64,000 nt of DNA. Source: an uncultured bacterium. Its GTDB lineage: Bacteria; JAJVIF01; JAPKYR01. Below are positions 13,803 through 57,035 of the stretch, in pieces. Every line of letters begins with the position of its first letter. The first letter of the stretch is position 1. The stretch spans positions 48,406 through 112,405 of the forward strand of contig CBDURU010000001.1 in NCBI GenBank assembly GCA_965369865.1. The letters are read 5' to 3'. The translations under genes were made by a program, and so were the position numbers. A model generated the notes under the pieces. That model saw only the letters and a list, made by a program, of their open reading frames with translations. It had not been told where the DNA came from and did no database searches.

Positions 13803-13918
13803 GATATTAGATTTACGTCGGCAAGCACGTTCGACCCGAAGATTTTCAAGGCGTGCGGGATGGAGATGTCTTACTGAGCAGGTTTGCGATCAATGAGTGT
13901 TCGTGTATTTCTCTGACC

Positions 13919-39151: not shown

Positions 39152-41659
39152 TCAAGGATTGTACCTCGCGACGAAAATATTAAAACCTGCGCCGGAAGTC
39201 AGTAATGTCTCGTATGGTTCGCCCTCTCCGAATAAGGCAAAGCCTGAGAACCTACCTGTAACTACTGTAGAGTCATCCGAAAGTGCTGTGATCCCATAAC
39301 CATAATCTCTTTTGCTCCCGCCGGCACGTTTCACCCATACGAGCATTCCATCCGGGTCATACCTCGCAACGAAAACATCATAGTCCCCGTCGGAAGTGAG
39401 CACGGTCTGGTTTGGATCACCCTTCCCGAATGTGGGTGAATCTTTGAACCCCCCTGACAAAACGGTCGAGTTGTCTGAAAGCGTTGTGATTCCATTACCC
39501 AAGCTCCAATCAGGATCGACAGCGCCTTTCGCCCAAGCAAGTGTTCCGTCCGGGTTGAATCGCGCGATAAAAATACCACCTGAACTTATGAAATTCAGCA
39601 CAGTCTCATTAGGTCCACCCTCTCCGAATGTGGCTGATCCTCCAGACCGACCTGTTACTACGGTGGAGTCGTTGGAAAGCGATGTTATTCCATAACCACG
39701 GTCAAAACCAATCCCTCCAGCACGTTTCGCCCACGCGAGTGTTCCGTCCTGGTTATACTGCGCGACGAAGATGTCATTTCCGTCAAAACCTCCATGGAAG
39801 GAAAAGAGCACAGTCTGATTCGTTTCGTCCTTCCCGAATGTGGCTGGTCCGATGTACGACCCTGTTACAACAGTCGAGTTGTCTGACAGGGCGGTAATTG
39901 CATAACCGATATCCCCTGGATATGTACTGCCGCCAGCGCTTTTTGCCCAGGCAAGCGTTCCGTCCGGATTGTACCTCGCAACGAAAATATTATCGTTATT
40001 TCCCCCTGAAGTGAGTTGTGTCTGATTTGGTTCACCCTCCCCGAATGTAGCTGATCCCCTGAAGTATCCTGTTATTACAGTCGAGTCATCTGAAAGCGCG
40101 GTAATTCCATAACCGATATCCCCTGGATATGTGCTGCCGCCAGCGCTTTTCGCCCATGCAAGCGTTCCATCCGGGTTATATCGCGCGACGAAAATATTAC
40201 AATTTTCTGAGGAAGTCAGTATGGTCTCATTCGCTTCACCCTTACCGAATGTGGTCCATCCTCTGAAACGCCCTGTTACCACGGTTGAGTCGTCCGAAAG
40301 CGATGTAATTCCATAACCCTCGTCCTCAACGCCCCCGCCAGCGCTTTTCGCCCATGCAAGTGTGCCGTCCGGGTTGTACCTTGCGACGAAAATATCCTGC
40401 AAGCTAACGGAAATCAGCACAGTCTGATTGGGTTCCCCTTTTCCAAAAATAGCTGTTGCGTAAAAAATGCCGGTTACTACAATCGAGTTGTCCGATAGTG
40501 TTGTGATTGCATAACCTTTTGCCATATCCCCGCCTGCGCTTTTCGCCCAGATCAGATTACCGTCTTCTTCCAAAGTAGTTCCATATTCGACCTGCCATGC
40601 ATCAATCTGCCCTGAAAATTCATCAACTTCGGTGTCAACTACCCGTATGAGTAATGGAGAATCATCAGCAGTGCCACCCAAATCATTTAAAATTGTTCCG
40701 GTATATTCTGTGCTGTTTTCCTCACCAGTAGATTGGGTTAATTCAACAACTCCGTTGAATAAACCAGGCGCTTCAACGGTGACTTTGTTGATAGTTGAAA
40801 TCCCCTGATGATCATACACTATAACCTTGATTGATTCAGACCCACCAGACTCAGGCCATGAGTCCATACTTGCATTAACAAAGTACGCCTCATTACAATT
40901 CGCTTCAGGAGGAAAGTCGTTCACCGGGTCGTCCCATGTGTCGATCTCCATCCAGCACGCATCGACCGCATAGCCGAATTTTAAATCCCCAGGCGGTACA
41001 TGAAGCCTTGCGCGACGGTGATCCTCCTCACCGGATTCTATCATACGCCGAGGATTTTCCCGGCCAAATGCGATGAATGGGTTTAAAGTTGCCGAGAAAT
41101 CATAGCCGATCGACATGATTCCAGGGAAGTATGTCAAAATTGGTGTATTTTCGTTGTACGGAAAATCGGTTGGGTTGAAAAGTGTCGTGAATCCAGCCGG
41201 ATTCATAATCCGGGGATTACTTCCATTGAAAGAGACCCTCTTACCGCTACCAGGGAAAGTATAGTCGGCATCGGTAATAAAAATAAACCGCATATCGAAT
41301 ACAGTGTATTGCGGGAGATCGGGTAGCGGGTGTTTCAATTTTATATCGCAGGAAAAATTATTGCTATCATAGATTATGAAATCGCTGAACCAGATGCAAT
41401 CAGGACACAGCTCTATGAAAGGCAGGATGTTCAGGTGCATCGCGAGATCGCGGTTCGGTATTACTTCGACTGTCTGCCGATCTTCGGATATGCTGACTTC
41501 GCCGACATTCAGGAGAATGCGGTTATCGCTGACAGTCGTCCGGTCATTGGGCTGGGGGGCGTTATCCGGGAGCAAGGCAGGATTCTCACCACCGGACGAG
41601 CAACCGATAACAATCAGCAATGTGATTGTGATTAGGAGTACCAGTGAATGCGCTTTCAT
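39152..41659 (-). CDS. Lipoprotein: conserved N-terminal domain (second subfamily) plus ~8 SBBP beta-propeller repeats
   Basis: The start is set at the ATG at 41659 (MKAHSLV...IVIGCSSG lipobox), with GGAGGG upstream. The N-domain is about 70 percent identical by eye to that of 56860..59304. The C-terminal half carries NIFVARYNPDGTLAWAKSAGG repeats. Confidence 0.85.
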   Translation of the reverse strand: MKAHSLVLLITITLLIVIGCSSGGENPALLPDNAPQPNDRTTVSDNRILLNVGEVSISEDRQTVEVIPNRDLAMHLNILPFIELCPDCIWFSDFIIYDSNNFSCDIKLKHPLPDLPQYTVFDMRFIFITDADYTFPGSGKRVSFNGSNPRIMNPAGFTTLFNPTDFPYNENTPILTYFPGIMSIGYDFSATLNPFIAFGRENPRRMIESGEEDHRRARLHVPPGDLKFGYAVDACWMEIDTWDDPVNDFPPEANCNEAYFVNASMDSWPESGGSESIKVIVYDHQGISTINKVTVEAPGLFNGVVELTQSTGEENSTEYTGTILNDLGGTADDSPLLIRVVDTEVDEFSGQIDAWQVEYGTTLEEDGNLIWAKSAGGDMAKGYAITTLSDNSIVVTGIFYATAIFGKGEPNQTVLISVSLQDIFVARYNPDGTLAWAKSAGGGVEDEGYGITSLSDDSTVVTGRFRGWTTFGKGEANETILTSSENCNIFVARYNPDGTLAWAKSAGGSTYPGDIGYGITALSDDSTVITGYFRGSATFGEGEPNQTQLTSGGNNDNIFVARYNPDGTLAWAKSAGGSTYPGDIGYAITALSDNSTVVTGSYIGPATFGKDETNQTVLFSFHGGFDGNDIFVAQYNQDGTLAWAKRAGGIGFDRGYGITSLSNDSTVVTGRSGGSATFGEGGPNETVLNFISSGGIFIARFNPDGTLAWAKGAVDPDWSLGNGITTLSDNSTVLSGGFKDSPTFGKGDPNQTVLTSDGDYDVFVARYDPDGMLVWVKRAGGSKRDYGYGITALSDDSTVVTGRFSGFALFGEGEPYETLLTSGAGFNIFVARYNP

Positions 41660-41842
41660 CCTGAAACCCTCCATTCTTAGGAAAAGGCATTTAAACTCGG
41701 GTACAATATTACACTAATGAATCAGAGTTTGAATAGAGATAAATTGTAGCCCAGGTTATTTTGGAAGTCAACCAAATTTAAGGGGGTCAGGATTTGAGTT
41801 TGAATCGTTGACAAGCACGTTCGACCCTAAGATTGGCTGGGA

Positions 41843-44137
41843 TTGGTAGAAAATTATGTCTCACTCGGCTTGTCAAGGCCATTCTTTAGGGTTTTAATTA
41901 ATTTACGTACATGTTATTATTTCATTCGTACAAGAACAGGGAATCCGGCTTCACATGGAGCCAACCCGCAGGGAGTCACAGAGATAGAAAAAGCAGGCGA
42001 AAATTCTACGATTAATCCGTTTTTTGTTGAAGAGCCGAGGATGGTATACGGTCCTGAGGCCGGCGACTGGCTGGAGCAATTCTGGCACCCTGAGCGACCC
42101 AATTATTATCTGCAGTTGTCGCAACCCCCGGATTATTACAGGGCACAGGAATGTTCAGTTTTTCTGCTGGTCCATGTAAAAGACATCTGGCCTCCAGGGG
42201 TGCTTATGGTCGGGGACAGGGGTATCCAACTGGATAGAATTATCGATGGTGAGTTGATCGTTGAGCCGTATCCCGGAGTGGCGGAAGGCGCTGGGATCTG
42301 GATTGATAATGAGCCCTGGGCCGAGGATGAATGGGACTCATGGGCGGACCCTAACATGGGATATCGCATCGCCGAGGACGCTAAACCCAGGGGGGATGAG
42401 TTTATAATAATATTTGAGATGGACGCGTTACTGGCTGATCCCGGCCTTGATGAGGTTAAGGTGCGTGTTACCGACTTCCACGAAAATTGGACAAGGACGG
42501 ATAATGTGCTGGACCAGCAGGGCGGTGAATATGTTGTACGCGACTTGATGTTCAGGGATAATAACAGGTATCCGGATGACAATGATCCCTGTTATTACCC
42601 TAACAATCAACCTCCGTACAGGAGAGTTGAATGCGACGGTTATGTAATGCCAAGGCCGGGCGGGACAACAGCCCTTGATGTGGTTGCGATCGTGTCATCT
42701 TATCATCCACCCGACAGTATCCCGGTCGATATTAGCGCACCTACTGACGAACCAGTGACTGGTGGTGGAGCGGAACAAGTAACTGCTCTATTGTACCGCC
42801 TGAATAAAAGCGCGTGTCCGAGTGAATGGCTGGAAATTTGGAGTGACAGCACGTGTGCCGGTGCTATTTACAGTTCATGTGTTGAAATATACTGCCGTTA
42901 TGCTACCGGGCGGGTATTCTATAATTGCCCTGAGGATCCACCGATGGTGGCTGCTACGGATAATGGGTACACCACAGTGTCATCACCTGCAAATCCTGTT
43001 GATTATTCGGAAACGCCGTTCTTGTATGTCAGCAGCAGCGATCACCTGATCGACGACCCAGGCGGGGATTATAAGGACTGGGCAAGTGCTATGGCGAGTG
43101 GTGTACAGATTAGTGGAAGTCCAATTCAGGATGCGAATATTTGGCACCATGCAGGTATGATTTTATCTGCTAGTTACGGAAATGGATTCCGGGGTTTATA
43201 TGAAACTGAACTCGAGCAAAGTCCTGAATGGACTTTTGGGGGTGGGTGCAGTATAGAGAACCAGTATTACGCAAACTATAAAGACAACGTATTAACTTAT
43301 GGGTTTGAATTGGTTAAAGCTGAATGTGATGGATATGAAGCGCACTATGCAATTCAAAGCCAGGCAGATGTAATGTTTGTTCTTGCGCACGGTGAAGTGT
43401 TCGGTAGGCCTGCAGGAAGGAACATGTATGGTGAATGGGAGGAATCAAATACCCATGCAATTCCTCCAGGTACAGATATACTTGGGAATCCATGGGTCGA
43501 TCAACCGTATTTATTCTATTTCCCGGAAAGCCCGTTACCACCTTATGACGAAACTGGTAATAAGAATGATATTATTGTCTGGGATGATTGGCCTGGTTAT
43601 CTTGGGCCAAATCCAGATTCGGATTGGCTTGTCTTGATGGCGTGCCTTCAGCTTGGTGATCCCAGTACTCTTGCCCAATGTAATGCCTGGCTTTCATATC
43701 GCCACCTTATCCAAAATTCGAGTATCAGATCCGTATTGGGCCATAGGGATTTACATAATGGTGGTGCATATTCTGTAGGGATTGGTAATAATCCATTGCA
43801 TCCAAATCTTTTTACTGGGACTTGGGAGGATGCTTTTATTGTTATGTTCTGCGGTTATCTGGAGTCAGGAGACTATCAACCTCACCCAACGGAACGGTGG
43901 TTGAATTACGATCCATCAGTTGAATATGGGGCAATGTGTTACATGGAAGCTGCATGGTTGTATTATTATTACTATGAAACAATGTGCGGCCCGTGGGAGG
44001 AAGATCATGTTTTCCAGGATACTACTACAATTATTACTGCAAGTGCAGTTGATTTGAATTATCGATACATTTTAGAAAAAGTACGTACTGCCGGTATACC
44101 AGAAGATGATTGGCCGGTAAGAATACATGTACTTTGA
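41843..44137 (+). CDS. A1: uncharacterised protein, the full-length member of the 'A' family (shared N-module, unique middle, C-terminal His/Cys caspase-fold-like module)
   Basis: It is a 764-aa ORF. The real start may be the ATG at 42041 (MVYGPEAGDW). The N-module at 42127-42513 is shared with A2/A3. The putative dyad is VLAHGE (His codon 43388-43390) and LVLMACLQLG (Cys codon 43643-43645). No signal peptide is evident. Confidence 0.7.
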   Translation: MVENYVSLGLSRPFFRVLINLRTCYYFIRTRTGNPASHGANPQGVTEIEKAGENSTINPFFVEEPRMVYGPEAGDWLEQFWHPERPNYYLQLSQPPDYYRAQECSVFLLVHVKDIWPPGVLMVGDRGIQLDRIIDGELIVEPYPGVAEGAGIWIDNEPWAEDEWDSWADPNMGYRIAEDAKPRGDEFIIIFEMDALLADPGLDEVKVRVTDFHENWTRTDNVLDQQGGEYVVRDLMFRDNNRYPDDNDPCYYPNNQPPYRRVECDGYVMPRPGGTTALDVVAIVSSYHPPDSIPVDISAPTDEPVTGGGAEQVTALLYRLNKSACPSEWLEIWSDSTCAGAIYSSCVEIYCRYATGRVFYNCPEDPPMVAATDNGYTTVSSPANPVDYSETPFLYVSSSDHLIDDPGGDYKDWASAMASGVQISGSPIQDANIWHHAGMILSASYGNGFRGLYETELEQSPEWTFGGGCSIENQYYANYKDNVLTYGFELVKAECDGYEAHYAIQSQADVMFVLAHGEVFGRPAGRNMYGEWEESNTHAIPPGTDILGNPWVDQPYLFYFPESPLPPYDETGNKNDIIVWDDWPGYLGPNPDSDWLVLMACLQLGDPSTLAQCNAWLSYRHLIQNSSIRSVLGHRDLHNGGAYSVGIGNNPLHPNLFTGTWEDAFIVMFCGYLESGDYQPHPTERWLNYDPSVEYGAMCYMEAAWLYYYYYETMCGPWEEDHVFQDTTTIITASAVDLNYRYILEKVRTAGIPEDDWPVRIHVL
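42127..42513 (+). repeat. Shared N-module of the A family, copy in A1
   Basis: 42181-42496 matches 45448-45763 with no mismatch that I can find by eye (316 nt). Flanking identity is slightly lower. Confidence 0.9.
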
Positions 44138-44158
44138 GGACCTGAGAGGAGTATAATC

Positions 44159-45316
44159 ATGAATATTATTAAAATATACAAACTATTAGTAATTAATGTT
44201 TATACATTATTATTCCTTACTTTAACTTCAACAGCTCATTCCACAACAATACTAAGTGAAATAAGTACGGAGAATATGCAACCGTATAGAATTATCCCGG
44301 GAACTATTTCCAATGAATTCTGGATAGTAGGCCAGGCAAAAGGATTAGGATTGCTTGTGGAAGATCAACAGGGAGCCTGGTCATTTACACAGTATCCCAT
44401 AGGCTCAGTATGGGATGCAGTGGGACCTGATAATAATGGCAGGATTTGGTGTTCAAGTTTTGTAACGGGAATTGGAACAGCCATACAAGTTTTTAATTGC
44501 AATACAAAGGATGTAATCCAAAATGTTAATATTGGCCCTGATTATGTAACGACAGGAATTACACTTTCTATTAATGAGGACTATGTGTATCTACTGGGTT
44601 GGGATTGGCCAAGATTTGGTGAACCGGGAAGTTGGGTATCCAGTTTCGGTCACCCAAATGCAGGCATTGTATGGGAAATTAATATATCTTCATTTGAAGT
44701 TTCCCCAGATATTGGTGTTGTTGGAGTATTTCCGTATACAATATATTACGCTGGAAGCCAAGAAACAGATAAACTCCTAGTTTACACTCTCGCACGGGAT
44801 GATGTAGGTCGAGAAGGTGGGGAATGTATTGACATCCTGGCAGTGGATAGAAGTTTCCCACGCTTAGGAGGGCTCCCGGCATGCTTTACAAATGAATATC
44901 TATACTGCAATGACCTAGTAAAATGGTCAGATGAAGATCCGCTTATAGCACTGTGTAATCGTTCGGTAGATAATATGGGGGATAGTGAAGATTTCTCCGA
45001 TGGATTATGGATCATCGATACAGAATTAGAAGAAGTTGTTCAGACATACCGTATATATGACATCGCGGACAGGATCAGGGGAGTTCAGCATCTTTGTGTG
45101 AGTGAAGTCCGTCCGGGGATCGCATATATGAGTCTTGGTTTTGGTGGTCTTGACGCAGAGACCGCGGTTTTTGATATGGCTACCGGACAGGTTATCGAGC
45201 ACATTCAAACCGGTCTTGTTTTCACTCCGGAATTTATTTATGAATTACCAGATGGCAGACTTATTGTCACTGGCGGCAGGACAAAAAATATAGTCATCAT
45301 CGACCCGTTACATTGA
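44159..45316 (+). CDS. B1: exported YVTN-like beta-propeller protein (divergent member of the 'B' family)
   Basis: It starts 21 nt after the A1 stop, with GAGAGGAG upstream. It has the N-terminal signal/anchor LLVINVYTLLFLTLTSTAHS and blade-like repeats ending ...LPDGRLIVTGGRTKNIVIIDP. Confidence 0.7.
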   Translation: MNIIKIYKLLVINVYTLLFLTLTSTAHSTTILSEISTENMQPYRIIPGTISNEFWIVGQAKGLGLLVEDQQGAWSFTQYPIGSVWDAVGPDNNGRIWCSSFVTGIGTAIQVFNCNTKDVIQNVNIGPDYVTTGITLSINEDYVYLLGWDWPRFGEPGSWVSSFGHPNAGIVWEINISSFEVSPDIGVVGVFPYTIYYAGSQETDKLLVYTLARDDVGREGGECIDILAVDRSFPRLGGLPACFTNEYLYCNDLVKWSDEDPLIALCNRSVDNMGDSEDFSDGLWIIDTELEEVVQTYRIYDIADRIRGVQHLCVSEVRPGIAYMSLGFGGLDAETAVFDMATGQVIEHIQTGLVFTPEFIYELPDGRLIVTGGRTKNIVIIDPLH

Positions 45317-45382
45317 TTCGTTGCAGTCCCTGAATGGCTCGAGCAGTTCTGGCATCCTGAGTTACCCAATTATTATCTGCAG

Positions 45383-47131
45383 TTGACGCAGCACCCGGAT
45401 TATTACAGGGCACAGGATTGTTCAGTTTTTCTGCTGGTCCATGCAAAAGACATCTGGCCTCCAGGGGTGCTTATGGTCGGGGACAGGGGTATCCAACTGG
45501 ATAGAATTATCGATGGTGAGTTGATCGTTGAGCCGTATCCCGGAGTGGCGGAAGGCGCTGGGATCTGGATTGATAATGAGCCCTGGGCCGAGGATGAATG
45601 GGACTCATGGGCGGACCCTAACATGGGATATCGCATCGCCGAGGACGCTAAACCCAGGGGGGATGAGTTTATAATAATATTTGAGATGGACGCGTTACTG
45701 GCTGATCCCGGCCTTGATGAGGTTAAGGTGCGTGTTACCGACTTCCACGAAAATTGGACAAGGTCGGATAATGTGCTTGAGGACATTGATGGCCTTTATA
45801 CTGTAACTAAAGTGGGGATAATCGAACAAAATTACCAGGGAACGACTGTTCTGGCGGACTTCTGCGGCGTGCCGGTATGTAATAGAGTAGCCGGTGAATA
45901 CACTCTTGATTATGTAGCTCAGGTAGTAACTTCGGATTACATTGAACCGCCTGACTTCTTATGGAGCGTTATAAATTCTCCACTGCATGAGGGCAGTGTC
46001 GGCTTAGTTGAAATAAATGTTCCCATTTATCGTCTGGATCCTGAATTGGACAGGTATGAAATATACAATGAACTGTTTCCCCCTCATGGCTATCAATGCA
46101 ATGTTCATTATTATTCTCGCGGGCTGGAATTATTAATCCCTCCCGGCGAAGTCGCCCCGGTTGTCATTGATGACTGGCGAGAATCGGTTCAGCCAATGCA
46201 CGAGGAAGACTATGGTACATGTCCGCATCTGTATTTGAGCGATAGGGACCATTTACTTGGTATCGAAGGTGATCCTAATAATGATCAATGGAAAGACTAT
46301 TCAATAGCAATGGCAATTGACTCAGATATCCGTGATTTCTATGACAAAGCTCTTAATTCAATGTATTTTGGTAGCTCTGAAAGAGGGATATTTTATGGCT
46401 GCAATGTTTTGATAGGTGATAAGGACAGCTATGCTGAAGATGTACTCGACAGCGGTGTTGAAAGGCTTAAAATCGATGTTGAAGAAAAGGAGGCGGATAT
46501 TGGTATTCAAAGTCGAGGTGACGCATATTTTGTAATTGGGCATAGTTATGAAACAGGTAATCCTCCCGGGCAAGTACAAGGGATTTGGGAGTTTATACCT
46601 TCGGCAAACCATAACGCCCCTGGCGATTGGAAGTATGTTGTTTCTAGAGATGATTTTGCAACCAGTGGAGATCTCGATCGGGAAGTAAACTGGTTGATTT
46701 CTCAAGCTTGTCATTTACTTGGTCCATCTTCGTATCAATATTGGCAGGCTCTAATACCGAATCAGTTGGATGCAATTTGTGGTTTTCGTTGCGCCAATAT
46801 CAGGGAACTTCTGCCGGAATTTAGCAAGCTTGAAGAAGAAGGACCAAGCGCTTTCTTCGGAGGTTTTTCAACCAGGTTAACCAGTAATGAGGGGGCTCAT
46901 GAAAGTTATTGGAAGTACGATAATCAAATCCCTAATGATCGCGCCATTATTGCGTGGATGGAGAACGCATGCGAATGGGCACGCATATTGAAATCAGAAG
47001 TTCGTAACCGTGAATACATGATGGAGAATGCTGCCGCAATTGATGAACTATACATTTATGAAATCGAATGGACTTCAAGCCCTTATGATTGGCCGCTCTT
47101 TGGTGAAAGCTTATACATTGTCAGATACTAG
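45383..47131 (+). CDS. A2: 'A'-family paralog lacking its own canonical 5' end
   Basis: Homology to A1 begins at ~45329, upstream of any in-frame start. The first candidates are TTG at 45383 and ATG at 45473. The putative dyad is FVIGHS (His 46541-46543) and LISQACHLLG (Cys 46709-46711). Confidence 0.65.
   Translation: MTQHPDYYRAQDCSVFLLVHAKDIWPPGVLMVGDRGIQLDRIIDGELIVEPYPGVAEGAGIWIDNEPWAEDEWDSWADPNMGYRIAEDAKPRGDEFIIIFEMDALLADPGLDEVKVRVTDFHENWTRSDNVLEDIDGLYTVTKVGIIEQNYQGTTVLADFCGVPVCNRVAGEYTLDYVAQVVTSDYIEPPDFLWSVINSPLHEGSVGLVEINVPIYRLDPELDRYEIYNELFPPHGYQCNVHYYSRGLELLIPPGEVAPVVIDDWRESVQPMHEEDYGTCPHLYLSDRDHLLGIEGDPNNDQWKDYSIAMAIDSDIRDFYDKALNSMYFGSSERGIFYGCNVLIGDKDSYAEDVLDSGVERLKIDVEEKEADIGIQSRGDAYFVIGHSYETGNPPGQVQGIWEFIPSANHNAPGDWKYVVSRDDFATSGDLDREVNWLISQACHLLGPSSYQYWQALIPNQLDAICGFRCANIRELLPEFSKLEEEGPSAFFGGFSTRLTSNEGAHESYWKYDNQIPNDRAIIAWMENACEWARILKSEVRNREYMMENAAAIDELYIYEIEWTSSPYDWPLFGESLYIVRY
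45394..45780 (+). repeat. Shared N-module of the A family, copy in A2
   Basis: See the A1 copy. The offset is a constant 3267 nt with no indels. Confidence 0.9.
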
Positions 47132-47147
47132 TCCTTTGAGGTGAACT

Positions 47148-48320
47148 ATGAATCAAAGATTAAAAAAAGCAGTCAAACTGGGCCTTGTGCTTATGGCTGG
47201 CATACTGGGTATTTGCGCTCTTGTTTGGGCTGCAAGTCAGTCGTTCTCGTATGGACAACCGGGCGCAGTGCAAGCTTTGTTGAATGATGACGGTAGTCGA
47301 CTGTATGTTTCGTACTACAGAGACAACAAAGTTGTAGAGATAGATACGGAAACGATGCAACAGGTTCGTCAATTTCAAATCGAATGGCCGGCCTATATGG
47401 AGTTATCTGAGGATGAGTTATATTTGTATGCAATAAGCAGGGCTGTCACAGCCAGTATTAAAAGGATGCGCTTGTCTGACGGCAACATTGATCAGATAAT
47501 TCTGGAAGGTGATGTTATTTCGCTATCGTATGATCCTGACGGTAATCGTTTGTGGGTTGTTCACCGAACATGGCCAATGGATGGAGATGTAATGAATGGT
47601 CCAGCCCCCCCGCCATCGTATGCTGGAATACTGACGGAAATTGACACAACAGATTTTGCAATTTCACAAAATCTTGCTATTGAATCATATCCCATTTCGG
47701 TGTGGTATTCACAGTATTCCGATAAAGTTTATGTAATGCATGGCTTGGTCAGGACTGAACCAGCCGGTTTTGAGACGGAAGGGGGAGGTTTTGTCACAAC
47801 GGGAGTCGCGTTATTGTGCAACCCAATTACCATTTATGGCTTGGATCAGGATAGATTGTACTGTATTGGTGAGGTGATGGGCGGGTTCTACAATGATGAT
47901 GTAATGCCTGCACAATTGGATAAATGGGACGACGATGGGAGATATATGGCAGTTCCATCTTCATCATATGGAATCCCATCGTTTTCCATGCGAGTTATTG
48001 ACACATACGATGACTCAGTTGCATTTGATTTGATATTCCCGACTTATTTTGATTCTCCATTGCCGGTTAATTTCGTAAAGAAAGTTACCGGAAATACTGA
48101 TTTCTGGGTTATGGTAAGTGGAGATATACCGTATGAAAATTTACCGGAAGGAAGTTGGGTGGTTGTACGGGTTAATACCGATACGCTCGAGCATGAAATT
48201 TATACTATAGATCAAGTAAATGCGAGATTATTCGGTAATTTTGCTGTGTCGCCTGACGGCAATACTTTATATTTAACTGTTCCACACACCGGCGAAATCA
48301 TCGTCTGGTCGCCGGATTGA
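47148..48320 (+). CDS. B2: exported YVTN-like beta-propeller protein
   Basis: It starts 16 nt after the A2 stop, with GAGGTG upstream. It has the signal/anchor LGLVLMAGILGICALVWAA and YVTN-like blades (DGSRLYVSYYRDNKVVEIDTETMQ..., SPDGNTLYLTVPHTGEIIVWSPD). Confidence 0.75.
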   Translation: MNQRLKKAVKLGLVLMAGILGICALVWAASQSFSYGQPGAVQALLNDDGSRLYVSYYRDNKVVEIDTETMQQVRQFQIEWPAYMELSEDELYLYAISRAVTASIKRMRLSDGNIDQIILEGDVISLSYDPDGNRLWVVHRTWPMDGDVMNGPAPPPSYAGILTEIDTTDFAISQNLAIESYPISVWYSQYSDKVYVMHGLVRTEPAGFETEGGGFVTTGVALLCNPITIYGLDQDRLYCIGEVMGGFYNDDVMPAQLDKWDDDGRYMAVPSSSYGIPSFSMRVIDTYDDSVAFDLIFPTYFDSPLPVNFVKKVTGNTDFWVMVSGDIPYENLPEGSWVVVRVNTDTLEHEIYTIDQVNARLFGNFAVSPDGNTLYLTVPHTGEIIVWSPD

Positions 48321-50002
48321 TTGTTTTATCACTGGTGCTTATGGTCGGGGACAGGGGTATCCAACTGGATAGAATTATCGATGGCGAGTTGATCATTGAG
48401 CCATATCCCGGAGTGGCGGAAGGCGCTGGGATCTGGATTGATAATGAGCCTTGGGCCGAGGATGAATGGGACTCATGGGCGGACCCTCACATGGAATATC
48501 GCATCGCCGAGGACGCTAAACCCAGGGGGGATGAGTTTATTATAATTATTGCTATGGACGCTTTACTTTCTGATCCCGGTCTTGAGGAGGTTAAGGTGCG
48601 TGTTACCGACTTCCACGAAAATTGGACAAGGACGGATAATTTGCTGGAGGACATTGATGGCCTTTATACTGTAACTGAAGTGGGGATAATCGAACAAAAT
48701 TACCAGGGAACGACTGTTCTGGCGGACTTCTGCAGCGTGCCTGTATGTGATAGAGTAGCTGGGATATACACTCTTGATTATGTAGCTCAGGTTGTAACAT
48801 CGGATTACATTGAACCACCTGATTTCTTATGGAGCGTTATAAATTCTCCAACGCATGAGGGCAGTGCTGGTTTAGCGGAAATAAATGTACCAATTTATCG
48901 TCTGGACCCTGAATTGGACAGGTATGAAATATACAATGAACTCTTTCCCCCTCATGGCTATCAATGCAATGTTCATTATTATTCTCGCGGGTTGGAATTA
49001 TTAATTCCTCCCGGTGAAGTCGCCCCGGTTGTCATTGATTTCTGGCGGTATTCTGTTCAACCAATGCACGAGGAAGACTATGATACCTGTCCGCATCTGT
49101 ATTTGAGCGATAGGGACCATTTAATTGGTCAGGAGGGTGATTTTGATGAAGATAGTTGGAAAGATTTCTCTATTGCCGTAGCAAACGATACAGAACTATG
49201 GCTCACATATAAACACGTAATTGACTACGCATGGTTTGGTTCAAGTGAGCGAGGTGGATTCCTCCCTATTTCCTGTGATCCGGACAAAGGTTTTAAACAG
49301 GATTATACAGTTGATGTTCTTGATTGCGGTGTTGAAAGAGTCCAGATTGATGTAGAGACTAAAACAGCTGATATTGGGATCCAAAGCAGAGGGGATGCAT
49401 ATTTCATATTTAGCCATGGTTGGCCACCTCCAATGATTGGGTATGAGCAATTAACACAGATTACCAGTCTAAGTCCTTTCCCTAATCCTGATCCGAATCT
49501 TCCTGATCGAATACCATTATCTGATTGGAAATATGTAAGTGGTCTTGCAACAGAGGTTGACTGGTTAATTTGCTCTGCATGCTTCCTTCTAAACGACGCA
49601 TCTTATCAAATATGGCAGCAATTACTTATCCCCAATTCGGTTGATGGGATCTGTGGCTTTAAGGATTTCAATTTTCGTAACATGTTGCCATTACATAGCT
49701 ATCCTAATCATCCAGGGCAAGAATTTTATCAAGCGTTTTCTGAGCGTCTTACAGACTATGAAGGCCCACATCATTATTTGTGGGGGTGTCAACCATCTTC
49801 AGTTCCAGCAGTTACTGCTTGGATGGAGAATGCATGTGTTTGGGCGATGCATATTTCAGCTGGATTTCATCCCGGGCAAGCCTGGCATGGTCTTATGTCC
49901 TGCGCGGCAGTTGATGGTGAATACCGTTATGTCCTGCGTACTCGTCGTCCCGATTGTTGGTGGGAACCGGATCCCTCATTTGAAATAAATGTCTTGCATT
50001 GA
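48317..50002 (+). CDS. A3: 'A'-family paralog, further 5'-truncated
   Basis: Homology to A1/A2 begins only at 48335 (..VLMVGDRGIQL). Candidate starts are TTG at 48317, which overlaps the B2 stop, or ATG at 48341. The putative dyad is FIFSHG (His 49415-49417) and LICSACFLL (Cys 49580-49582). Confidence 0.65.
   Translation: MIVLSLVLMVGDRGIQLDRIIDGELIIEPYPGVAEGAGIWIDNEPWAEDEWDSWADPHMEYRIAEDAKPRGDEFIIIIAMDALLSDPGLEEVKVRVTDFHENWTRTDNLLEDIDGLYTVTEVGIIEQNYQGTTVLADFCSVPVCDRVAGIYTLDYVAQVVTSDYIEPPDFLWSVINSPTHEGSAGLAEINVPIYRLDPELDRYEIYNELFPPHGYQCNVHYYSRGLELLIPPGEVAPVVIDFWRYSVQPMHEEDYDTCPHLYLSDRDHLIGQEGDFDEDSWKDFSIAVANDTELWLTYKHVIDYAWFGSSERGGFLPISCDPDKGFKQDYTVDVLDCGVERVQIDVETKTADIGIQSRGDAYFIFSHGWPPPMIGYEQLTQITSLSPFPNPDPNLPDRIPLSDWKYVSGLATEVDWLICSACFLLNDASYQIWQQLLIPNSVDGICGFKDFNFRNMLPLHSYPNHPGQEFYQAFSERLTDYEGPHHYLWGCQPSSVPAVTAWMENACVWAMHISAGFHPGQAWHGLMSCAAVDGEYRYVLRTRRPDCWWEPDPSFEINVLH
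48335..48650 (+). repeat. Shared N-module of the A family, 5'-truncated copy in A3
   Basis: It aligns with 42200-42515 at a constant offset of 6135 nt. I count roughly 15-20 mismatches by eye. Confidence 0.85.
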
Positions 50003-50016
50003 TTTTGGAGATCACA

Positions 50017-51162
50017 ATGAAAACAAAAACATTCATAATCTTAGGTATAGTAATCACTGCAATTGTTGTTGGCGGAATTCTGTATGAAATAACGATGAAT
50101 CCTGGAATAATCGCAAGCAGTAACGGCTATTATTACGGTCTTTCTAATCCTGTTACAGCAGCGATCAACTCAAACGGCGACCACCTGTATGTCTCATTTC
50201 CTTCCCATAACAAGGTTTTGGAAATAGATATCCCAAGCATGCAGGAACTCAGGCGATTTGATATAGATGATGCAGGATACCTTCATCTGGATCAGAGTGA
50301 AAATTTACTCTACTGTATTTCTTCCGGGTATCCCAGCTACCTAAACAGGATCAATTTATCTTCGGGACAAACTGAGCGGATTCAAATAACTGCGCTGGCT
50401 ACTGACTTCTGTTTCCATCCGGATGGACAAACGATCTGGGTGATAAGTCAAACGTGGCCCGGGGAAGGAGAATGGTATGTGCCTTCTGAAGCATACAAGC
50501 ATCCAGAGAGTGGTATGATTACTGAAGTGGATGTTCAGAATTTTGAGATTATTCAATCTGCTACAATAAAGCCGTTACCGGTTTGTATTATGTACTCATC
50601 ATATACTGAGATGTTGTATATCTGGCATGCTTATACTTCAGTTGAAAGCGAACCAGGACAAAATTACATTACTCGTAATGGTAATGTTATTTACGAAACT
50701 GACCCGTCTAGGTTGAATCAAGGTCGTCACTTTATTACAGGTCCTGAAATAGGCCTTCCGGGAGGTCCAAGGGTTGAATTATGGTCAGATGACGGAAGGT
50801 ACCTTGCAGTTCCCAGTCCCGCAATAGGCGAGCCGCCACACTCATTAATGGTATTTGACCTTGAGTCATGGGATTATGCAAGTGAAATTTCAGTTTTAAT
50901 GGGCAATGATCTACCGTTTGGCACTCGTTTTTTACATGTTGTACCGAACCAAAATATCATCTGGGCAACCGGTTTCGGAGGATTCTCAGAGAATCCTCTT
51001 GATAGACCTGTTATCAGAATTAATAGAGTAACAGAAGAAATTGAAGTTTTTCCTGTACATGGAGTTCCTCGATGGGGTGATTTCACTGTGTCTCCTGATG
51101 GCTCAACGCTTTACTTGACCAGCCCTAACACTAATGAAATCATCGTCTGGTCGCCGGATTGA
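50017..51162 (+). CDS. B3: exported YVTN-like beta-propeller protein
   Basis: ATG at 50017 with GGAG 6 nt upstream (the track start is TTG at 49999). It has the anchor FIILGIVITAIVVGGIL and ends ...SPDGSTLYLTSPNTNEIIVWSPD. Confidence 0.75.
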   Translation: MKTKTFIILGIVITAIVVGGILYEITMNPGIIASSNGYYYGLSNPVTAAINSNGDHLYVSFPSHNKVLEIDIPSMQELRRFDIDDAGYLHLDQSENLLYCISSGYPSYLNRINLSSGQTERIQITALATDFCFHPDGQTIWVISQTWPGEGEWYVPSEAYKHPESGMITEVDVQNFEIIQSATIKPLPVCIMYSSYTEMLYIWHAYTSVESEPGQNYITRNGNVIYETDPSRLNQGRHFITGPEIGLPGGPRVELWSDDGRYLAVPSPAIGEPPHSLMVFDLESWDYASEISVLMGNDLPFGTRFLHVVPNQNIIWATGFGGFSENPLDRPVIRINRVTEEIEVFPVHGVPRWGDFTVSPDGSTLYLTSPNTNEIIVWSPD

Positions 51163-51212
51163 TCGTCACAGGCGGCGAGAGCGAAAAAATCCTCGTCATC
51201 GATCCGACGTAG
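51162..51212 (+). pseudogene. Relic of an ancestral last beta-strand of the B family, located after the B3 stop
   Basis: It translates as IVTGGESEKILVIDPT*. Compare the B1 C-terminus IVTGGRTKNIVIIDPLH*. Confidence 0.45.
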
Positions 51213-51296
51213 TGATATAATGGTTTCTCTAATACAGCGACAAGCACGTTCGGCTGGAAGCCAGGCATTGCTTGTCACCGACATCCAGGTCACAAG

Positions 51297-52463
51297 ATGC
51301 GAAAACATGTACGTCTGATAGTTATCGTTTTATCCGCTATGATTTGCATAACAGGCATTTATGCAATCGTTAAAGCCACACGAGAATTTTATTCCTATGG
51401 GCAGCAGGGGGCAACGGACATCGAAATTACAAATAATGGTGAACTGCTATATGTTACATATTTTGAAGATAACGCCGTCGTGGAGATCGATGCAAATACA
51501 ATGTTAGAGGTTAGAAGATTTTCGGTTCCCATGCCAACGACAATTTATCTTGATAGCGACGAAGAATATATTTACGCAAGTAGCGATACCTGGCCGGGTG
51601 GAGTATATAGAATACAATTGATCGATGGTCAATCTTCTTCCTTAACGCTGGAAGGCGAAATATATGATTTGGCAATAGATAAACAAAATAACAGATTATG
51701 GGCTGTTCATTTAATTTGGCCTCAGTTTGATGAGTTATTTAGTGAGACAGAGGCATATCTCCATCCGAATACTGGGAGGTTGACTGAGATAGACCTGGAT
51801 AATTTCCAGGTAACCAGAGAGCTTGAAATAGAGCCATTGCCTACAGCGGTATGGTATTCACAATATAGTAATAAAGTATATGTTGTTCATCATTTACGTA
51901 GATTTGAGCCATATGACCCGTCATCTTACGGGTCAATGGAGAGTATGAAATATTTCGGTAATCCCATTACCATTTATGGATTGGATCAGGAAAATTTACA
52001 CAAAATTGGGGAGAATTTTGTCGGTCATCATGATAAGTCTTTAATTATACCATACCATATTGGTAATTGGGACGATAGTGGTCGTTATCTCGTTGTTCCA
52101 AGCCCCATATCTGGCCGTCCCGAATTTTCTTTGGAAGTTATTGATACAGTTGATGATTCAATTGAAAATTATATTTCATTTCCTGGTTATCCTCCAGGTG
52201 ATCTTATGACAACAAAATATATTCAAAAGGTACCAAATATTGATGTATTATGGTCTACAATTTTATTCGGTCGTCCTGATCCTGAAATTTATGAAGGAAA
52301 TAGATTCATTGCTCGGGTAAATACAGTAACATTAGAATATGAGATATTCACGATTGATAATGTTAATTATAGCTTCGGAGATTTTGCTGTGTCACCTGAC
52401 GGCAATACTTTATATTTAACTGTTCCCAATACCGGCGAAATCATCGTCTGGTCTCCGGATTAA
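51297..52463 (+). CDS. B4: exported YVTN-like beta-propeller protein (no A gene in front)
   Basis: It has the anchor LIVIVLSAMICITGIYAIV. It is about 45 percent identical by eye to B2, and the last ~90 nt are nearly identical to B2. Confidence 0.75.
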   Translation: MRKHVRLIVIVLSAMICITGIYAIVKATREFYSYGQQGATDIEITNNGELLYVTYFEDNAVVEIDANTMLEVRRFSVPMPTTIYLDSDEEYIYASSDTWPGGVYRIQLIDGQSSSLTLEGEIYDLAIDKQNNRLWAVHLIWPQFDELFSETEAYLHPNTGRLTEIDLDNFQVTRELEIEPLPTAVWYSQYSNKVYVVHHLRRFEPYDPSSYGSMESMKYFGNPITIYGLDQENLHKIGENFVGHHDKSLIIPYHIGNWDDSGRYLVVPSPISGRPEFSLEVIDTVDDSIENYISFPGYPPGDLMTTKYIQKVPNIDVLWSTILFGRPDPEIYEGNRFIARVNTVTLEYEIFTIDNVNYSFGDFAVSPDGNTLYLTVPNTGEIIVWSPD

Positions 52464-52545
52464 TTGTTTTATCACAGGGGCTTATGGAACCCATCGGCAG
52501 ACCCCTCTCCGGTGCCCCACACATCCCCTTGTTAAATTAAAAATG

Positions 52546-52835
52546 GACCCATATCACATAGATATGGGCCTACCGATTAACAAAAATTATATCCTGAAAA
52601 AAATTAACAATCCATCCGTAGAACTGCACGGCAGTGCGTCTCAAAGAAACTCCCGATGAATCACGGGTTGAAACGCGCGATAAAAATATCGTCAAGTCCG
52701 GCCGAGGTCAGCAATGTCTCGTTGGATTCGTAAAGCCCGAATATGGCTGATTCATTGAAATAGCCTGCCACAACCATCGAATCGTCCGACAGTACTTCGA
52801 TCCCATATCCTTCATCCCTGAAAGATCCGCCCGCC
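52546..52835. repeat. Direct repeat, copy 1 (terminator hairpin plus the 3' end of an SBBP gene)
   Basis: GACCCATATCACATAGATATGGGCCTACCGATTAACAAAA...CACGGCAGTGCGTCTCAA...GTACTTCGATCCC is shared with 56768-57035. Copy 1 has a ~25-nt insertion after ATATCC. Confidence 0.85.
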
Positions 52836-52838
52836 AGG
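52661..52838 (-). pseudogene. 3'-terminal fragment (~59 codons) of an SBBP lipoprotein gene, a duplicate of the 3' end of 56860..59304
   Basis: The reverse-strand translation is ...DEGYGIEVLSDDSMVVAGYFNESAIFGLYESNETLLTSAGLDDIFIARFNP*. It has no upstream body and is nearly identical at the nt level to 56860-57035. Confidence 0.8.
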
Positions 52839-52840
52839 AT

Positions 52841-53008
52841 ATGTATGAAGATAACAAGAGCAACTGGGCTATTGAAGTCTTGAAATGAGGTGTAGAGTTA
52901 GTTGAAGTCGAGGTTGAAGATAAAACGGCTGATATAGGTTTCCAAAGCAGGGGAGATGTTTACTTCCTGATTGCACATGGTTCTACGATAGAGGTTGAAG
53001 GAAATTAG
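52841..53008 (+). pseudogene. Relic of a fourth 'A'-family gene (region around the putative catalytic His) with an in-frame TGA
   Basis: It translates as ..YEDNKSNWAIEVLK*GVELVEVEVEDKTADIGFQSRGDVYFLIAHGSTIEVEGN*. Compare A3 ..VLDCGVERVQIDVETKTADIGIQSRGDAYFIFSHG. The TGA sits where A3 has Cys and A2 has Ser. Confidence 0.7.
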
Positions 53009-53202
53009 GTTGTAGATTTGGTCTTCGAAGCTTGCCTGGTTGTCGGGTTTCGAATGCATGTATCCACCCTCTCGCCTTTCCCGTTCGGTTTATACTGGAC
53101 ATTATTTTCATTTCTCGCCTGAATGCAGGTGCCCATTGTATTTTGCGCCGGTTGCATGCTATTCTATATATTCATTCACGTTTCATTTTGGAGGTTTTTG
53201 GT

Positions 53203-56757: not shown

Positions 56758-56790
56758 TTAAAAAACAGACCCATATCACATAGATATGGG
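56758..56790 (-). terminator. Rho-independent terminator of the 56860..59304 gene (hairpin shared with the copy at 52548-52568)
   Basis: The minus strand reads CCCATATC-tatgt-GATATGGG followed by TCTGTTTTTT. It lies 70 nt downstream of the stop. Confidence 0.65.
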
Positions 56791-57035
56791 CCTACCGATT
56801 AACAAAATTTATATCCGTATAACATCACGGCAGTGCGTCTCAACGAGACTCCCGATGAATCATGGATTGAAACGCGCGATAAAAATATCGTCAAGTCCGG
56901 CCGAGGTCAGCAATGTCTCGTTGGATTCGTAAAGCCCGAATATGGCTGATTCATTGAAATAGCCTGCCACAACCATCGAATCGTCCGACAGTACTTCGAT
57001 CCCGAATCCTTCATCCCTATAGGAACCGCCTGCGC
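56768..57035. repeat. Direct repeat, copy 2 (functional gene end plus terminator)
   Basis: It has the same sequence as copy 1 with a few substitutions, including synonymous changes in the last codons (CCA/CCG Pro, AAT/AAC Asn). Confidence 0.85.

What the first reader, a model, noticed from the sequence alone, without database searches (positions are those of the whole stretch)
41843..53008. Tandem array of an undescribed two-gene module (His/Cys 'A' protein plus exported beta-propeller 'B' protein), laid out like a polymorphic-effector locus with orphan cassettes
The gene order is A1-B1-A2-B2-A3-B3-B4, followed by an A relic. Each A is followed tightly by a B: a 21-nt gap, a 16-nt gap, then a gap of 14 nt at most (the two track ORFs overlap by 4 nt). 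The B genes have Shine-Dalgarno sequences, and the whole array is on one strand. Only A1 has its own 5' region. A2 keeps homology upstream of any usable start codon. A3 starts even deeper in the protein. A fourth copy is reduced to a fragment with a nonsense codon. All retained copies still share a near-identical block with A1, while their C-terminal halves differ. This is the architecture known from CDI/Rhs/other polymorphic toxin loci: a main gene followed by 5'-truncated orphan toxin-immunity pairs that can be recombined into the expression site. Here, though, neither family resembles any toxin, immunity or secretion component I recognise. The partner genes are also unusually large (~385 aa), and they are exported or membrane-anchored YVTN-like propellers rather than small immunity proteins. 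The array is noticeably more AT-rich than the neighbouring housekeeping genes. It sits between two paralogous surface-lipoprotein genes.
Basis: partly seen in the sequence, partly recalled or inferred. Interest (0 to 1): 0.85.

Follow-up and report, generated by a model that had tools for sequence, protein, structure and literature searches.

The report
Truncated lipoprotein–propeller gene cassette array
This is a tandem array of an unannotated two-gene module, a lipoprotein-family gene with an invariant His/Cys domain followed by an exported seven-bladed propeller gene; it is laid out like the spare toxin–immunity cassettes of bacterial competition systems, but all three copies of the first gene here lack their export signal.

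Summary
A1-B1-A2-B2-A3-B3-B4 and an A relic lie on the + strand with the stated gaps. A1, A2 and A3 share a 95-97% identical DNA block and then drop abruptly to 16-47% protein identity.

- In all 11 contexts I could read, A is followed by B.
- At least three other genomes show a full-length A-B pair followed by 5'-truncated A-B cassettes, orphan B genes or A relics.
- B identity tracks the identity of the adjacent A His/Cys domain (Mantel r=0.93). The shared 5' block instead groups by genome (r=-0.08).
- A2's C-terminal part and B2 have 80% and 77% identical counterparts in another genome. This is the mosaic pattern of polymorphic toxin-immunity loci.

One correction is needed. A1 is not a main gene. 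Full-length relatives are about 1100-aa lipoproteins, and A1 lacks their first ~420 residues and the lipobox.

A has no Pfam, NCBIfam, PADLOC or PDB relative. Cys601 is invariant (69/69) and His516 nearly so, but the fold is unresolved. B is a seven-bladed propeller with a signal peptide or membrane anchor.

Best reading (about 0.5): a new lipoprotein effector/periplasmic immunity cassette system, held here as an orphan and immunity archive. Toxicity is untested.

The parts
41675..41941 (+). Region upstream of A1 with no homology to family members. It takes the place of the ~420-codon N-terminal part and lipoprotein signal found in full-length A genes. It contains a motif at 41805-41838 that is shared with 13815-13848.
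   Evidence: The tblastn match of P0004 and P0005 starts at 41942/41960, at query residue 417/412.
41942..44137 (+). A1, a 5'-truncated A gene. The maximal ORF runs from the TTG at 41843 and the first in-frame ATG is at 42041. It has no signal peptide. It consists of Ig-like beta-sandwich domains followed by a C-terminal His516/Cys601 domain.
42065..42513 (+). Near-identical recombination block in A1. It ends at the family-wide motif VKVRVTDxxxNWxRS.
   Evidence: It is 97.1% identical to 45332-45780, and its 42199-42513 part is 94.6% identical to 48334-48648. Motif conservation is 47-50 of 50 sequences.
44159..45316 (+). B1, an exported beta-propeller of the B1 type with a cleavable Sec signal peptide.
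45332..47131 (+). A2, an orphan A copy. Its homology starts 16 nt after the B1 stop and in the same frame as B1. The first possible start is the TTG at 45383, which has no Shine-Dalgarno sequence.
   Evidence: Its His/Cys C-terminal domain is 80% identical to that of L004 Atr.
47148..48320 (+). B2, a seven-bladed beta-propeller with an N-terminal transmembrane or signal helix (B2 type).
   Evidence: The AF2 model has pLDDT 80. Foldseek matches seven-bladed propellers at E about 1e-12. It is 77% identical to L004 Bb.
48317..50002 (+). A3, an orphan A copy truncated further into the gene than A2. Its homology starts at 48334. Its TTG start overlaps the B2 stop (TTGA).
50017..51162 (+). B3, a B2-type propeller. 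Its ATG is preceded by GGAGA.
51162..51212 (+). Relic of the 3' end of a B1-type gene, reading IVTGGESEKILVIDPT*.
   Evidence: The tblastn match to B1 residues 370-383 has E=4.6e-4.
51297..52463 (+). B4, an orphan B2-type propeller with no A partner. A promoter-like site lies at 51193-51221.
52464..52487 (+). Stump of a deleted A copy. It matches the junction between the B2 stop and the A3 start.
52546..52834 (-). Duplicate, 96-98% identical, of the 3' end plus terminator hairpin of the SBBP lipoprotein gene at 56860-59304.
52853..52978 (+). A relic covering the strand that carries the catalytic His. It has an in-frame stop. Weak similarity with further stops continues to about 53164.

Best explanation
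The locus is an archive of cassettes from a previously undescribed, polymorphic two-gene system.

**Shown from sequence**
- In its complete form, seen in other genomes, gene A encodes a lipoprotein of about 1100 aa.
- That protein has a lipobox signal, an N-terminal region of about 440 aa and Ig-like beta-sandwich domains.
- It ends in a C-terminal domain of about 300-380 aa with an invariant Cys and a near-invariant His-Gly.
- Gene B, 14-36 nt downstream, encodes an exported or membrane-anchored seven-bladed beta-propeller.
- B co-diversifies with that C-terminal domain.

**Inferred**
- The C-terminal domain is a thiol hydrolase, either a peptidase or an amidase, and acts as an effector outside the cytoplasm.
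- B binds it and neutralises it in the producer's periplasm, so B works like an immunity protein.
- The 5'-truncated A copies with their B genes are displaced or spare cassettes.
- Recombination could move a cassette into an expression gene. The near-identical 5' block would serve as one homology arm. The conserved 3' end of B plus the junction stump would serve as the other.
- Orphan B genes are kept as protection against effectors made by other strains.

**In this window**
All three A copies lack the signal peptide and N-terminal region. The locus probably supplies four immunity-like B proteins and three silent or cytoplasmically harmless A cassettes, not an active effector.
For: **Adjacency**
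- A is followed by B in 11 of 11 contexts, including a distant family member.

**Recurrent array architecture**
- L001 has a full-length A, B, a 95-aa A relic, then B.
- L004 has a full-length A, B, a truncated A starting at the B stop, B, then a 76-nt stump.
- L006 has B, a truncated A, B, then a stump.
- L005 has A followed by three B genes.

**Mosaic pattern**
- A1 against A2 is 95-100% identical, then falls abruptly to 16-47%.
- A2 against L004 Atr is 41-47% in the 5' part but 67-90% in the C-terminal part.

**Co-variation**
- Mantel r=0.93 (p=2e-4) for B identity against the adjacent A His/Cys domain.
- r=-0.08 for B identity against the 5' block.

**Selection**
- dN/dS is about 0.06 for A2 against L004 Atr and 0.08 for B2 against L004 Bb. 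Synonymous sites are saturated.
- The truncated A ORFs are intact over 561-944 codons.

**Candidate catalytic residues**
- Cys601 is present in 69 of 69 sequences, His516 in 58 of 64 and Gly517 in 54 of 64.
- Ser506 and Asp509 are also conserved.

**Localisation**
- Full-length A proteins have a lipobox (..CGCSSGG). B proteins have signal peptides or a transmembrane helix.

**Orphan B genes**
- B genes stay intact where the A partner is deleted or decayed: B4 and the second B of L001.

**Precedents in the literature**
- Tsi1 is a partial beta-propeller that gives periplasmic immunity to the Cys/His amidase Tse1 (PMC3391265).
- Orphan cassettes, C-terminal caspase-like toxin domains and secreted immunity proteins occur in polymorphic toxin systems (PMC3482391).
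- SitA proteins are lipoprotein toxins (PMC5562445).
Against: - No toxicity, binding or secretion data exist.
- A matches no known toxin, peptidase or trafficking family.
- The fold of the His/Cys domain is unresolved. AF2 pLDDT is below 50 there and Foldseek found nothing.
- All C-terminal variants are homologous. Across distant family members the C-terminal domain is the conserved part and the N-terminal regions vary. This is the reverse of the classic pattern of a constant N-terminus with unrelated C-termini.
- No delivery apparatus is consistently linked to the module.
- B is large (about 385 aa), and one relative carries an extra C-terminal extension. Both are unusual for an immunity protein.
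- In this genome no A copy has an export signal.
Confidence: 0.5

Rival explanations
1. A is a variable surface protein and B is a dedicated partner, with no toxin involved. A would be a surface lipoprotein, either a protease or an adhesin. Its exposed C-terminal domain would diversify under pressure from phages, predators or grazers. B would be a periplasmic chaperone, maturation factor or inhibitor that has to fit that domain. The truncated copies would be silent cassettes for surface variation by gene conversion.
For: - A sits among at least five paralogous surface lipoprotein genes.
- All C-terminal variants are one homologous domain.
- The shared blocks show ongoing gene conversion.
- No toxin family matches.
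Against: - Intact orphan B genes that lack an A partner are hard to explain if B only serves its own A. Examples are B4, the second B of L001 and the B-B-B run in L005.
- The invariant Cys and near-invariant His point to catalysis and not only to binding.
Confidence: 0.2
2. B is a targeting or receptor-binding subunit and not a neutraliser. Like the lectin propellers of Streptomyces umbrella toxin particles, exported B propellers would assemble with A and set target specificity. Extra B genes would widen the range of targets.
For: - B is a seven-bladed propeller of the YVTN/lectin-like kind with a cleavable signal peptide in the B1 type.
- B genes outnumber A genes in several loci.
- The umbrella toxin precedent is in PMC13274773.
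Against: - B co-varies tightly with the A C-terminal domain and not with the constant part. In umbrella particles the lectins attach through conserved parts.
- B2-type proteins appear to be membrane-anchored.
Confidence: 0.1
3. A and B form a polymorphic self/non-self recognition pair. The A C-terminal domain and B would be a matching ligand-receptor pair used for kin discrimination, and the cassettes would supply new specificities.
For: - The pair co-varies allele by allele.
- Both proteins are extracytoplasmic.
- All variants are homologous, as in known allorecognition pairs.
Against: - The invariant Cys/His dyad suggests an enzyme.
- B1-type proteins look soluble and periplasmic, not surface-displayed.
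- Nothing here can test this reading.
Confidence: 0.1
4. The array is debris from unequal crossing-over. Tandem paralogs of an ordinary two-gene operon would have been scrambled by illegitimate and homologous recombination. The truncated A copies would be pseudogenes with no role as cassettes.
For: - There are many relics and stumps.
- A1, A2 and A3 all lack signal peptides and convincing starts.
- The region shows other segmental duplication.
Against: - The truncated ORFs of 561-944 codons are free of stops in 43% GC DNA, in several genomes.
- dN/dS is low between truncated copies from different genomes.
- The same layout recurs independently with different truncation points.
Confidence: 0.1

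Closest known systems
CDI (CdiA-CT/CdiI) and Rhs loci with orphan toxin-immunity modules
   Same: - A main gene is followed by 5'-truncated copies.
- Each truncated copy keeps a block of near-identical sequence and is followed directly by a partner gene.
- Identity breaks sharply next to a conserved motif.
- The C-terminal part plus its partner behave as a unit shared across genomes.
   Different: - There is no TPS domain, FHA or YD repeat, PAAR, VENN or PxxxxDPxGL motif, and no CdiB or T6SS genes (Pfam finds nothing).
- A is a lipoprotein.
- All C-terminal variants are one homologous domain family.
- The partner is a 385-aa exported propeller, not a small cytoplasmic protein.
Neisseria MafB/MafI islands and other Sec-dependent polymorphic toxins (Zhang et al. 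2012, PMC3482391)
   Same: - The toxin is exported by the Sec pathway and has a lineage-specific N-terminal region.
- Alternative C-terminal cassettes lie downstream together with their immunity genes.
   Different: - The protein families are unrelated.
- Maf immunity proteins are cytoplasmic.
Myxococcus SitA/SitI lipoprotein toxins
   Same: - The polymorphic effectors carry a lipobox signal.
- They are encoded next to a cognate protective gene.
   Different: - SitA toxins are nucleases delivered by TraAB outer-membrane exchange, and their immunity proteins are cytoplasmic.
- No homology to SitA was found here, and no TraAB link is known for this module.
T6SS Tse1/Tsi1 (Tae1/Tai1)
   Same: A Cys/His hydrolase effector acts in the periplasm and is neutralised by a periplasmic immunity protein built like a (partial) beta-propeller (PMC3391265).
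   Different: - Tse1 is a small NlpC/P60 enzyme with the Cys before the His, and it is delivered by the T6SS.
- Here the His comes 57-85 residues before the Cys.
- Here the protein is a large lipoprotein and B is a full seven-bladed propeller.
- There is no sequence relationship.
Clan CD (caspase/gingipain/CHAT-like) cysteine peptidases, including 'Tox-Caspase'
   Same: - The motif context matches: a hydrophobic strand followed by His-Gly, then a second hydrophobic strand followed by (Ala/Ser)-Cys, in the order His then Cys.
- The domain lies at the C-terminus, as in Tox-Caspase toxins.
   Different: - Nothing significant supports the link. Pfam finds nothing, hhalign against caspase-3 gives 0.2% probability, and the AF2 model is unreliable in this domain.
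- This is a resemblance only.

Membership tests
Polymorphic toxin-immunity system (sensu Zhang/Aravind 2012) | A constant N-terminal part combined with variable C-terminal modules generated by recombination | tested here: met
   Within each genome the 5' block is 90-99% identical while the C-terminal domains are 25-44% identical. C-terminal modules are orthologous across genomes at 80%. Caveat: all C-terminal variants are homologous to each other.
Polymorphic toxin-immunity system (sensu Zhang/Aravind 2012) | A cognate partner gene lies immediately downstream and co-varies with the C-terminal module | tested here: met
   The partner is adjacent in 11 of 11 contexts. Mantel r=0.93, p=2e-4.
Polymorphic toxin-immunity system (sensu Zhang/Aravind 2012) | Standalone or orphan 5'-truncated cassettes lie downstream of a full-length gene | tested here: met
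   This is seen in L001, L004 and L006. In the window itself only truncated copies are present.
Polymorphic toxin-immunity system (sensu Zhang/Aravind 2012) | The C-terminal module is toxic and the partner neutralises it | not testable with these tools
   This needs expression and rescue experiments.
Polymorphic toxin-immunity system (sensu Zhang/Aravind 2012) | A recognised trafficking domain or a linked secretion system | tested here: inconclusive
   A lipobox signal is present in full-length homologs. No known pre-toxin domain was found. T2SS/T4P-like genes are nearby in only 2 loci.
CDI / Rhs | TPS, FHA or YD repeats; PAAR; VENN or PxxxxDPxGL demarcation motifs | tested here: not met
   Pfam gives no hits for any of 16+41 family members at E<=1-10. 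A different conserved motif, VKVRVTDxxxNWxRS, sits at the A1/A2 breakpoint.
Clan CD cysteine peptidase | Caspase-hemoglobinase fold with a His-Gly and Cys dyad at the ends of adjacent strands | tested here: inconclusive
   The dyad is conserved and its sequence context fits. However, AF2 pLDDT is below 50 in this domain, Foldseek, Pfam and PDB find nothing, and hhalign gives 0.2% probability.
Seven-bladed (YVTN/WD40-like) beta-propeller (B) | Seven four-stranded blades | tested here: met
   The AF2 model has pLDDT 80 and pTM 0.79. Foldseek gives E down to 5e-13 against seven-bladed propellers. Sequence matches to the YVTN, YncE and PD40 models are all below their cut-offs.
Bacterial lipoprotein (A) | A signal peptide ending in a lipobox Cys | tested here: met
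   By inspection, the full-length homologs P0004, P0005, P0027, P0031, P0034, P0041, P0057 and others carry ..(C/I/V)(G/S)C(S/K/Q).. after a hydrophobic stretch. A1, A2 and A3 in the window do not meet this feature.

The most novel reading that the evidence does not exclude
A and B form a new class of extracytoplasmic, polymorphic enzyme-partner system that is not a conventional toxin-immunity pair. One version would be a surface-anchored thiol hydrolase whose allele-specific propeller partner governs self/non-self recognition or target choice. Recombination cassettes would reprogram that specificity in an uncultured bacterial lineage. A second possibility is that the His/Cys domain turns out to be a new thiol-hydrolase fold.
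Probability: 0.2. Interest if true: 0.85.

Novelty: new variant of a known kind. Interest (0 to 1): 0.62.

Why it matters
If the inference holds, three things follow.
- It would add a new effector family, a conserved Cys/His domain with no detectable relatives.
- It would add a new type of large, propeller-shaped periplasmic immunity protein.
- It would show lipoprotein-anchored delivery with orphan cassettes in uncultured diderm bacteria from lake sediment and similar habitats.

The module is also a clean natural data set of cognate protein pairs. Across the 11 pairs compared, co-variation is r=0.93, which makes it useful for studying the evolution of binding specificity.

The window shows a genome that keeps four partner genes but no exportable effector. 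That fits the idea that immunity genes outlive their toxins.

Tried and rejected
**Family and structure searches that found nothing**
- Pfam, NCBIfam and PADLOC scans of A1-A3 and of 57 family members, including distant ones, gave no family.
- PDB profile searches with four different A alignments gave nothing meaningful.
- The AF2 model of A1 resolves only the Ig-like sandwich domains. The His/Cys domain is below pLDDT 50, and Foldseek returned only generic Ig-like hits.
I treat this as a lead and not as evidence.

**Collection scans that found nothing**
- An exact-match scan and a protein scan of JGI metagenome contigs were both empty. I therefore could not look for recombinant variants or for a full-length copy from the same population.
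- The viral contig scan found no relatives.
- There is no plasmid relative and no Rfam match in the locus.
- Looking up A1's own contig failed because that exact product is not on record.

**Ideas considered and rejected**
- The N-terminus of A is not related to the flanking SBBP lipoproteins beyond the lipobox.
- Stop-codon readthrough from B into A is not supported. The truncated A is in frame with the preceding B in 2 of 3 cases, which is not beyond chance.
- The L,D-transpeptidase and NlpC/P60 folds do not fit the order and spacing of the His and Cys. This rests on my own knowledge of those families.

Full report
**1. The observation**

ORF listing confirms the layout on the + strand:
- A1: 41843-44137
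- B1: 44159-45316
- A2: 45383-47131
- B2: 47148-48320
- A3: 48317-50002
- B3: 49999-51162, with its likely ATG at 50017
- B4: 51297-52463

The A-to-B gaps are 21, 16 and 14 nt. B1, B2 and B3 have clear Shine-Dalgarno sequences.

A self-comparison of the DNA and an alignment of the three copies show the shared block.
- 42065-42513 matches 45332-45780 at 97.1%.
- 42199-42513 matches 48334-48648 at 94.6%.
- A2 and A3 share a further stretch, 45466-46296 against 48334-49164, at 91.9%.

In A2 and A3 the homology begins 14-16 nt after the stop of the preceding B gene. In A2 it begins upstream of any start codon. Protein identity between A1 and A2 is 95-100% across the block. It then drops abruptly to 16-47% just after the motif VKVRVTDFHENWTR(S/T)DN.

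The A relic is real. It lies at 52853-52978, is 55% identical to A2, and has an in-frame stop. The array is AT-richer than its flanks: GC 0.434 against 0.48-0.49, with B4 at 0.373. The flanking genes are paralogous SBBP/DUF5122 lipoproteins.

**2.

The A family is small and unannotated, with ten hits in 5.8 billion proteins for A1. It includes full-length members of 1095-1143 aa. These begin with a lipoprotein signal (for example ...LALCCGCSSGG) and an N-terminal region of about 440 aa.

A1 matches these proteins only from about residue 417, which is window position 41942. Upstream of that point lies unrelated AT-rich sequence and a divergently transcribed lipoprotein gene. So A1 is itself 5'-truncated and has no signal peptide.

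No other protein carrying the near-identical block appeared in the search. As far as the databases show, this organism therefore has no full-length copy.

The locus also holds further fossils:
- the last 16 codons of a B1-type gene directly after the B3 stop, at 51162-51212;
- a 24-nt stump of an A3-like junction after the B4 stop;
- a 96-98% identical copy of the 3' end and terminator of the lipoprotein gene at 56860-59304, lying at 52546-52834 on the minus strand.

**3. Related loci**

In every context I could read, an A gene is followed 14-36 nt later by a B gene.

| Locus | Layout |
|---|---|
| L001 | full-length A (1109 aa), B, 95-aa A C-terminal relic, B |
| P0004 contig | 397-aa gene (no DNA held, not compared), full-length A (1143 aa), B |
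| L002, L003, L007 | A cut by the contig end, then B |
| L004 | full-length A (1095 aa), B, truncated A (894 aa) starting at the B stop, B, 76-nt A stump |
| L005 | A followed by three B copies |
| L006 | B, truncated A (944 aa), B, 58-nt stump |
| P0026 contig | full-length A (1125 aa), 388-aa gene |
| L011 | distant family member P0041 (1231 aa), then a B1-type propeller (E=7e-63) |

The two-gene module and the array layout, with truncated copies, orphan B genes and terminal stumps, therefore recur independently. The truncation points differ between genomes.

**4. Mosaic structure and co-variation**

I compared eleven A-B pairs.
- B identity correlates with identity of the adjacent A His/Cys domain: Mantel r=0.93, p=2e-4.
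- B identity does not correlate with the 5' block: r=-0.08.
- The 5' block groups by genome. The window copies are 0.90-0.99 identical to each other and the two L004 copies are 0.82.

A2 and the truncated A of L004 are only 41-47% identical in the 5' part but 67-90% identical in the C-terminal part. Their B partners are 77% identical.

A2 and A3 diverge only from the start of the His/Cys domain. The unit that travels with B is therefore that domain.

Truncated A copies and B genes from different genomes show low dN/dS, about 0.06 and 0.08, with synonymous sites saturated. The truncated ORFs are intact over 561-944 codons.

**5. The proteins**

*A.* It has no Pfam, NCBIfam, PADLOC or PDB relative, even when 57 members and several profiles are used.
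- A full HMMER scan of 1.84 billion representatives finds 88 clusters. Many full-length members are lipoproteins.
- In the most distant members only the C-terminal domain matches the profile.
- Within that domain Cys601 is invariant (69/69). His516 (58/64) with Gly517, Ser506, Asp509 and several other residues are nearly invariant.
- The sequence context is a hydrophobic strand then His-Gly, followed 57-85 residues later by a hydrophobic strand then (Ala/Ser)-Cys. From my own knowledge, this recalls clan CD peptidases.
- I could not confirm that resemblance. AF2 models the N-terminal Ig-like sandwich domains well but the His/Cys domain poorly. Foldseek gives only Ig-like hits. hhalign against caspase-3 aligns only the His strand, at 0.2% probability.

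*B.* It is a seven-bladed beta-propeller: AF2 pLDDT 80 and Foldseek E about 1e-12.
- The B1 type has a cleavable signal peptide. The B2 type has an N-terminal transmembrane or signal helix.
- The two B types are homologous but only about 16% identical.
- Each pairs with its own A type.

**6. Interpretation**

The layout matches what is known from CDI, Rhs and Maf loci:
- modules made of a C-terminal domain plus a partner gene;
- orphan copies that retain a homology block;
- a conserved motif at a breakpoint.

Both proteins are extracytoplasmic. That would suit an effector acting on the cell envelope and a periplasmic protector. Intact B genes persist where the A partner has decayed, as orphan immunity genes do.

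The literature offers precedents:
- secreted immunity proteins and C-terminal caspase-like toxin domains in polymorphic toxin systems (PMC3482391);
- a propeller-like periplasmic immunity protein for a Cys/His amidase (PMC3391265);
- lipoprotein toxins (PMC5562445).

I therefore favour a new lipoprotein effector/propeller immunity cassette system, with confidence of about 0.5. In this window it is reduced to an archive of three signal-less A cassettes and four B genes.

Steps that are shown:
- gene adjacency;
- the mosaic pattern;
- co-variation;
- residue conservation;
- export signals;
- the propeller fold.

Steps that are inferred:
- enzymatic activity;
- toxicity;
- neutralisation by B;
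- cassette exchange;
- the delivery route.

Points against:
- all C-terminal variants are homologous, and the C-terminal domain is the conserved core of the wider family;
- no delivery system is linked to the module;
- B is large.

The rival explanations are scored separately in the report:
- surface variation with a dedicated partner;
- B as a targeting lectin, as in umbrella toxins (PMC13274773);
- a recognition pair;
- recombination debris.

**7. Novelty and score**

Both families are undescribed, rare and confined to uncultured bacteria. The source MAGs are labelled only 'bacterium' and come from Lac Pavin sediment and other metagenomes. The organisational logic, however, is that of a known kind of system. 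I rate it a new variant of a known kind, with interest 0.62.

Noticed in passing
window 41805-41838, 13815-13848, 51239-51252: A motif, CGTyGrCAAGCACGTTCGACCCkAAGATT, is shared by the region upstream of A1 and an intergenic region at 13.8 kb. Its 14-nt core also lies upstream of B4. Three matches were found against 0.03 expected by chance. Upstream of A1 and at 13.8 kb the similarity resumes about 50 nt downstream (ATGTCTyACT). It could be a shared promoter or leader, or a small repeat element.
   Followed up: partly
window 52546-52819 and 56768-57018: These are direct repeats of about 270 bp, 96-98% identical. Each contains the 3' end and terminator hairpin of an SBBP lipoprotein gene. They bracket a ~4-kb segment that holds the A relic and the PKD-SBBP lipoprotein gene (53204-56601), which suggests a segmental insertion or duplication.
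   Followed up: partly
window 34583-37552 (-): A 989-aa protein with TIR, DUF7779 and TPR domains sits in a 34-39% GC patch just upstream of the locus. It looks like a horizontally acquired defence or conflict gene, with weak PADLOC hits to TIR models.
   Followed up: partly
window 4873-6759, 25829-28402, 39152-41674, 53204-56601, 56860-59304: At least five paralogous SBBP/DUF5122 beta-propeller lipoproteins share a ..GCS(S/G)G.. lipobox. The genes at 39152 and 56860 are 64% identical. In related MAGs the A-B module also lies next to genes of this kind (L007, L011).
   Followed up: partly
window 53032-53203: The listed ORF of the downstream lipoprotein starts at a TTG at 53032. The signal peptide and lipobox begin at the ATG at 53204 (MALSIRSML...ISGCSG). 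The upstream part overlaps decayed A-relic sequence and is probably not coding.
   Followed up: no
full-length A homologs (P0004 residues ~310-345; profile positions 130-162): The N-terminal region that is missing from the window's copies carries a conserved pattern, C-x-C...H...E...C (CWCGMD..HHDY.Q.EDF..C). It may be a metal or disulfide site. Its function is unknown.
   Followed up: no
L001 754-3315 and the P0026 contig: Two of the related loci have type II secretion or type IV pilus genes within a few kb upstream of the full-length A gene: a secretin in L001 and an MshE-like ATPase on the P0026 contig. There are too few cases to tell whether this is chance.
   Followed up: no
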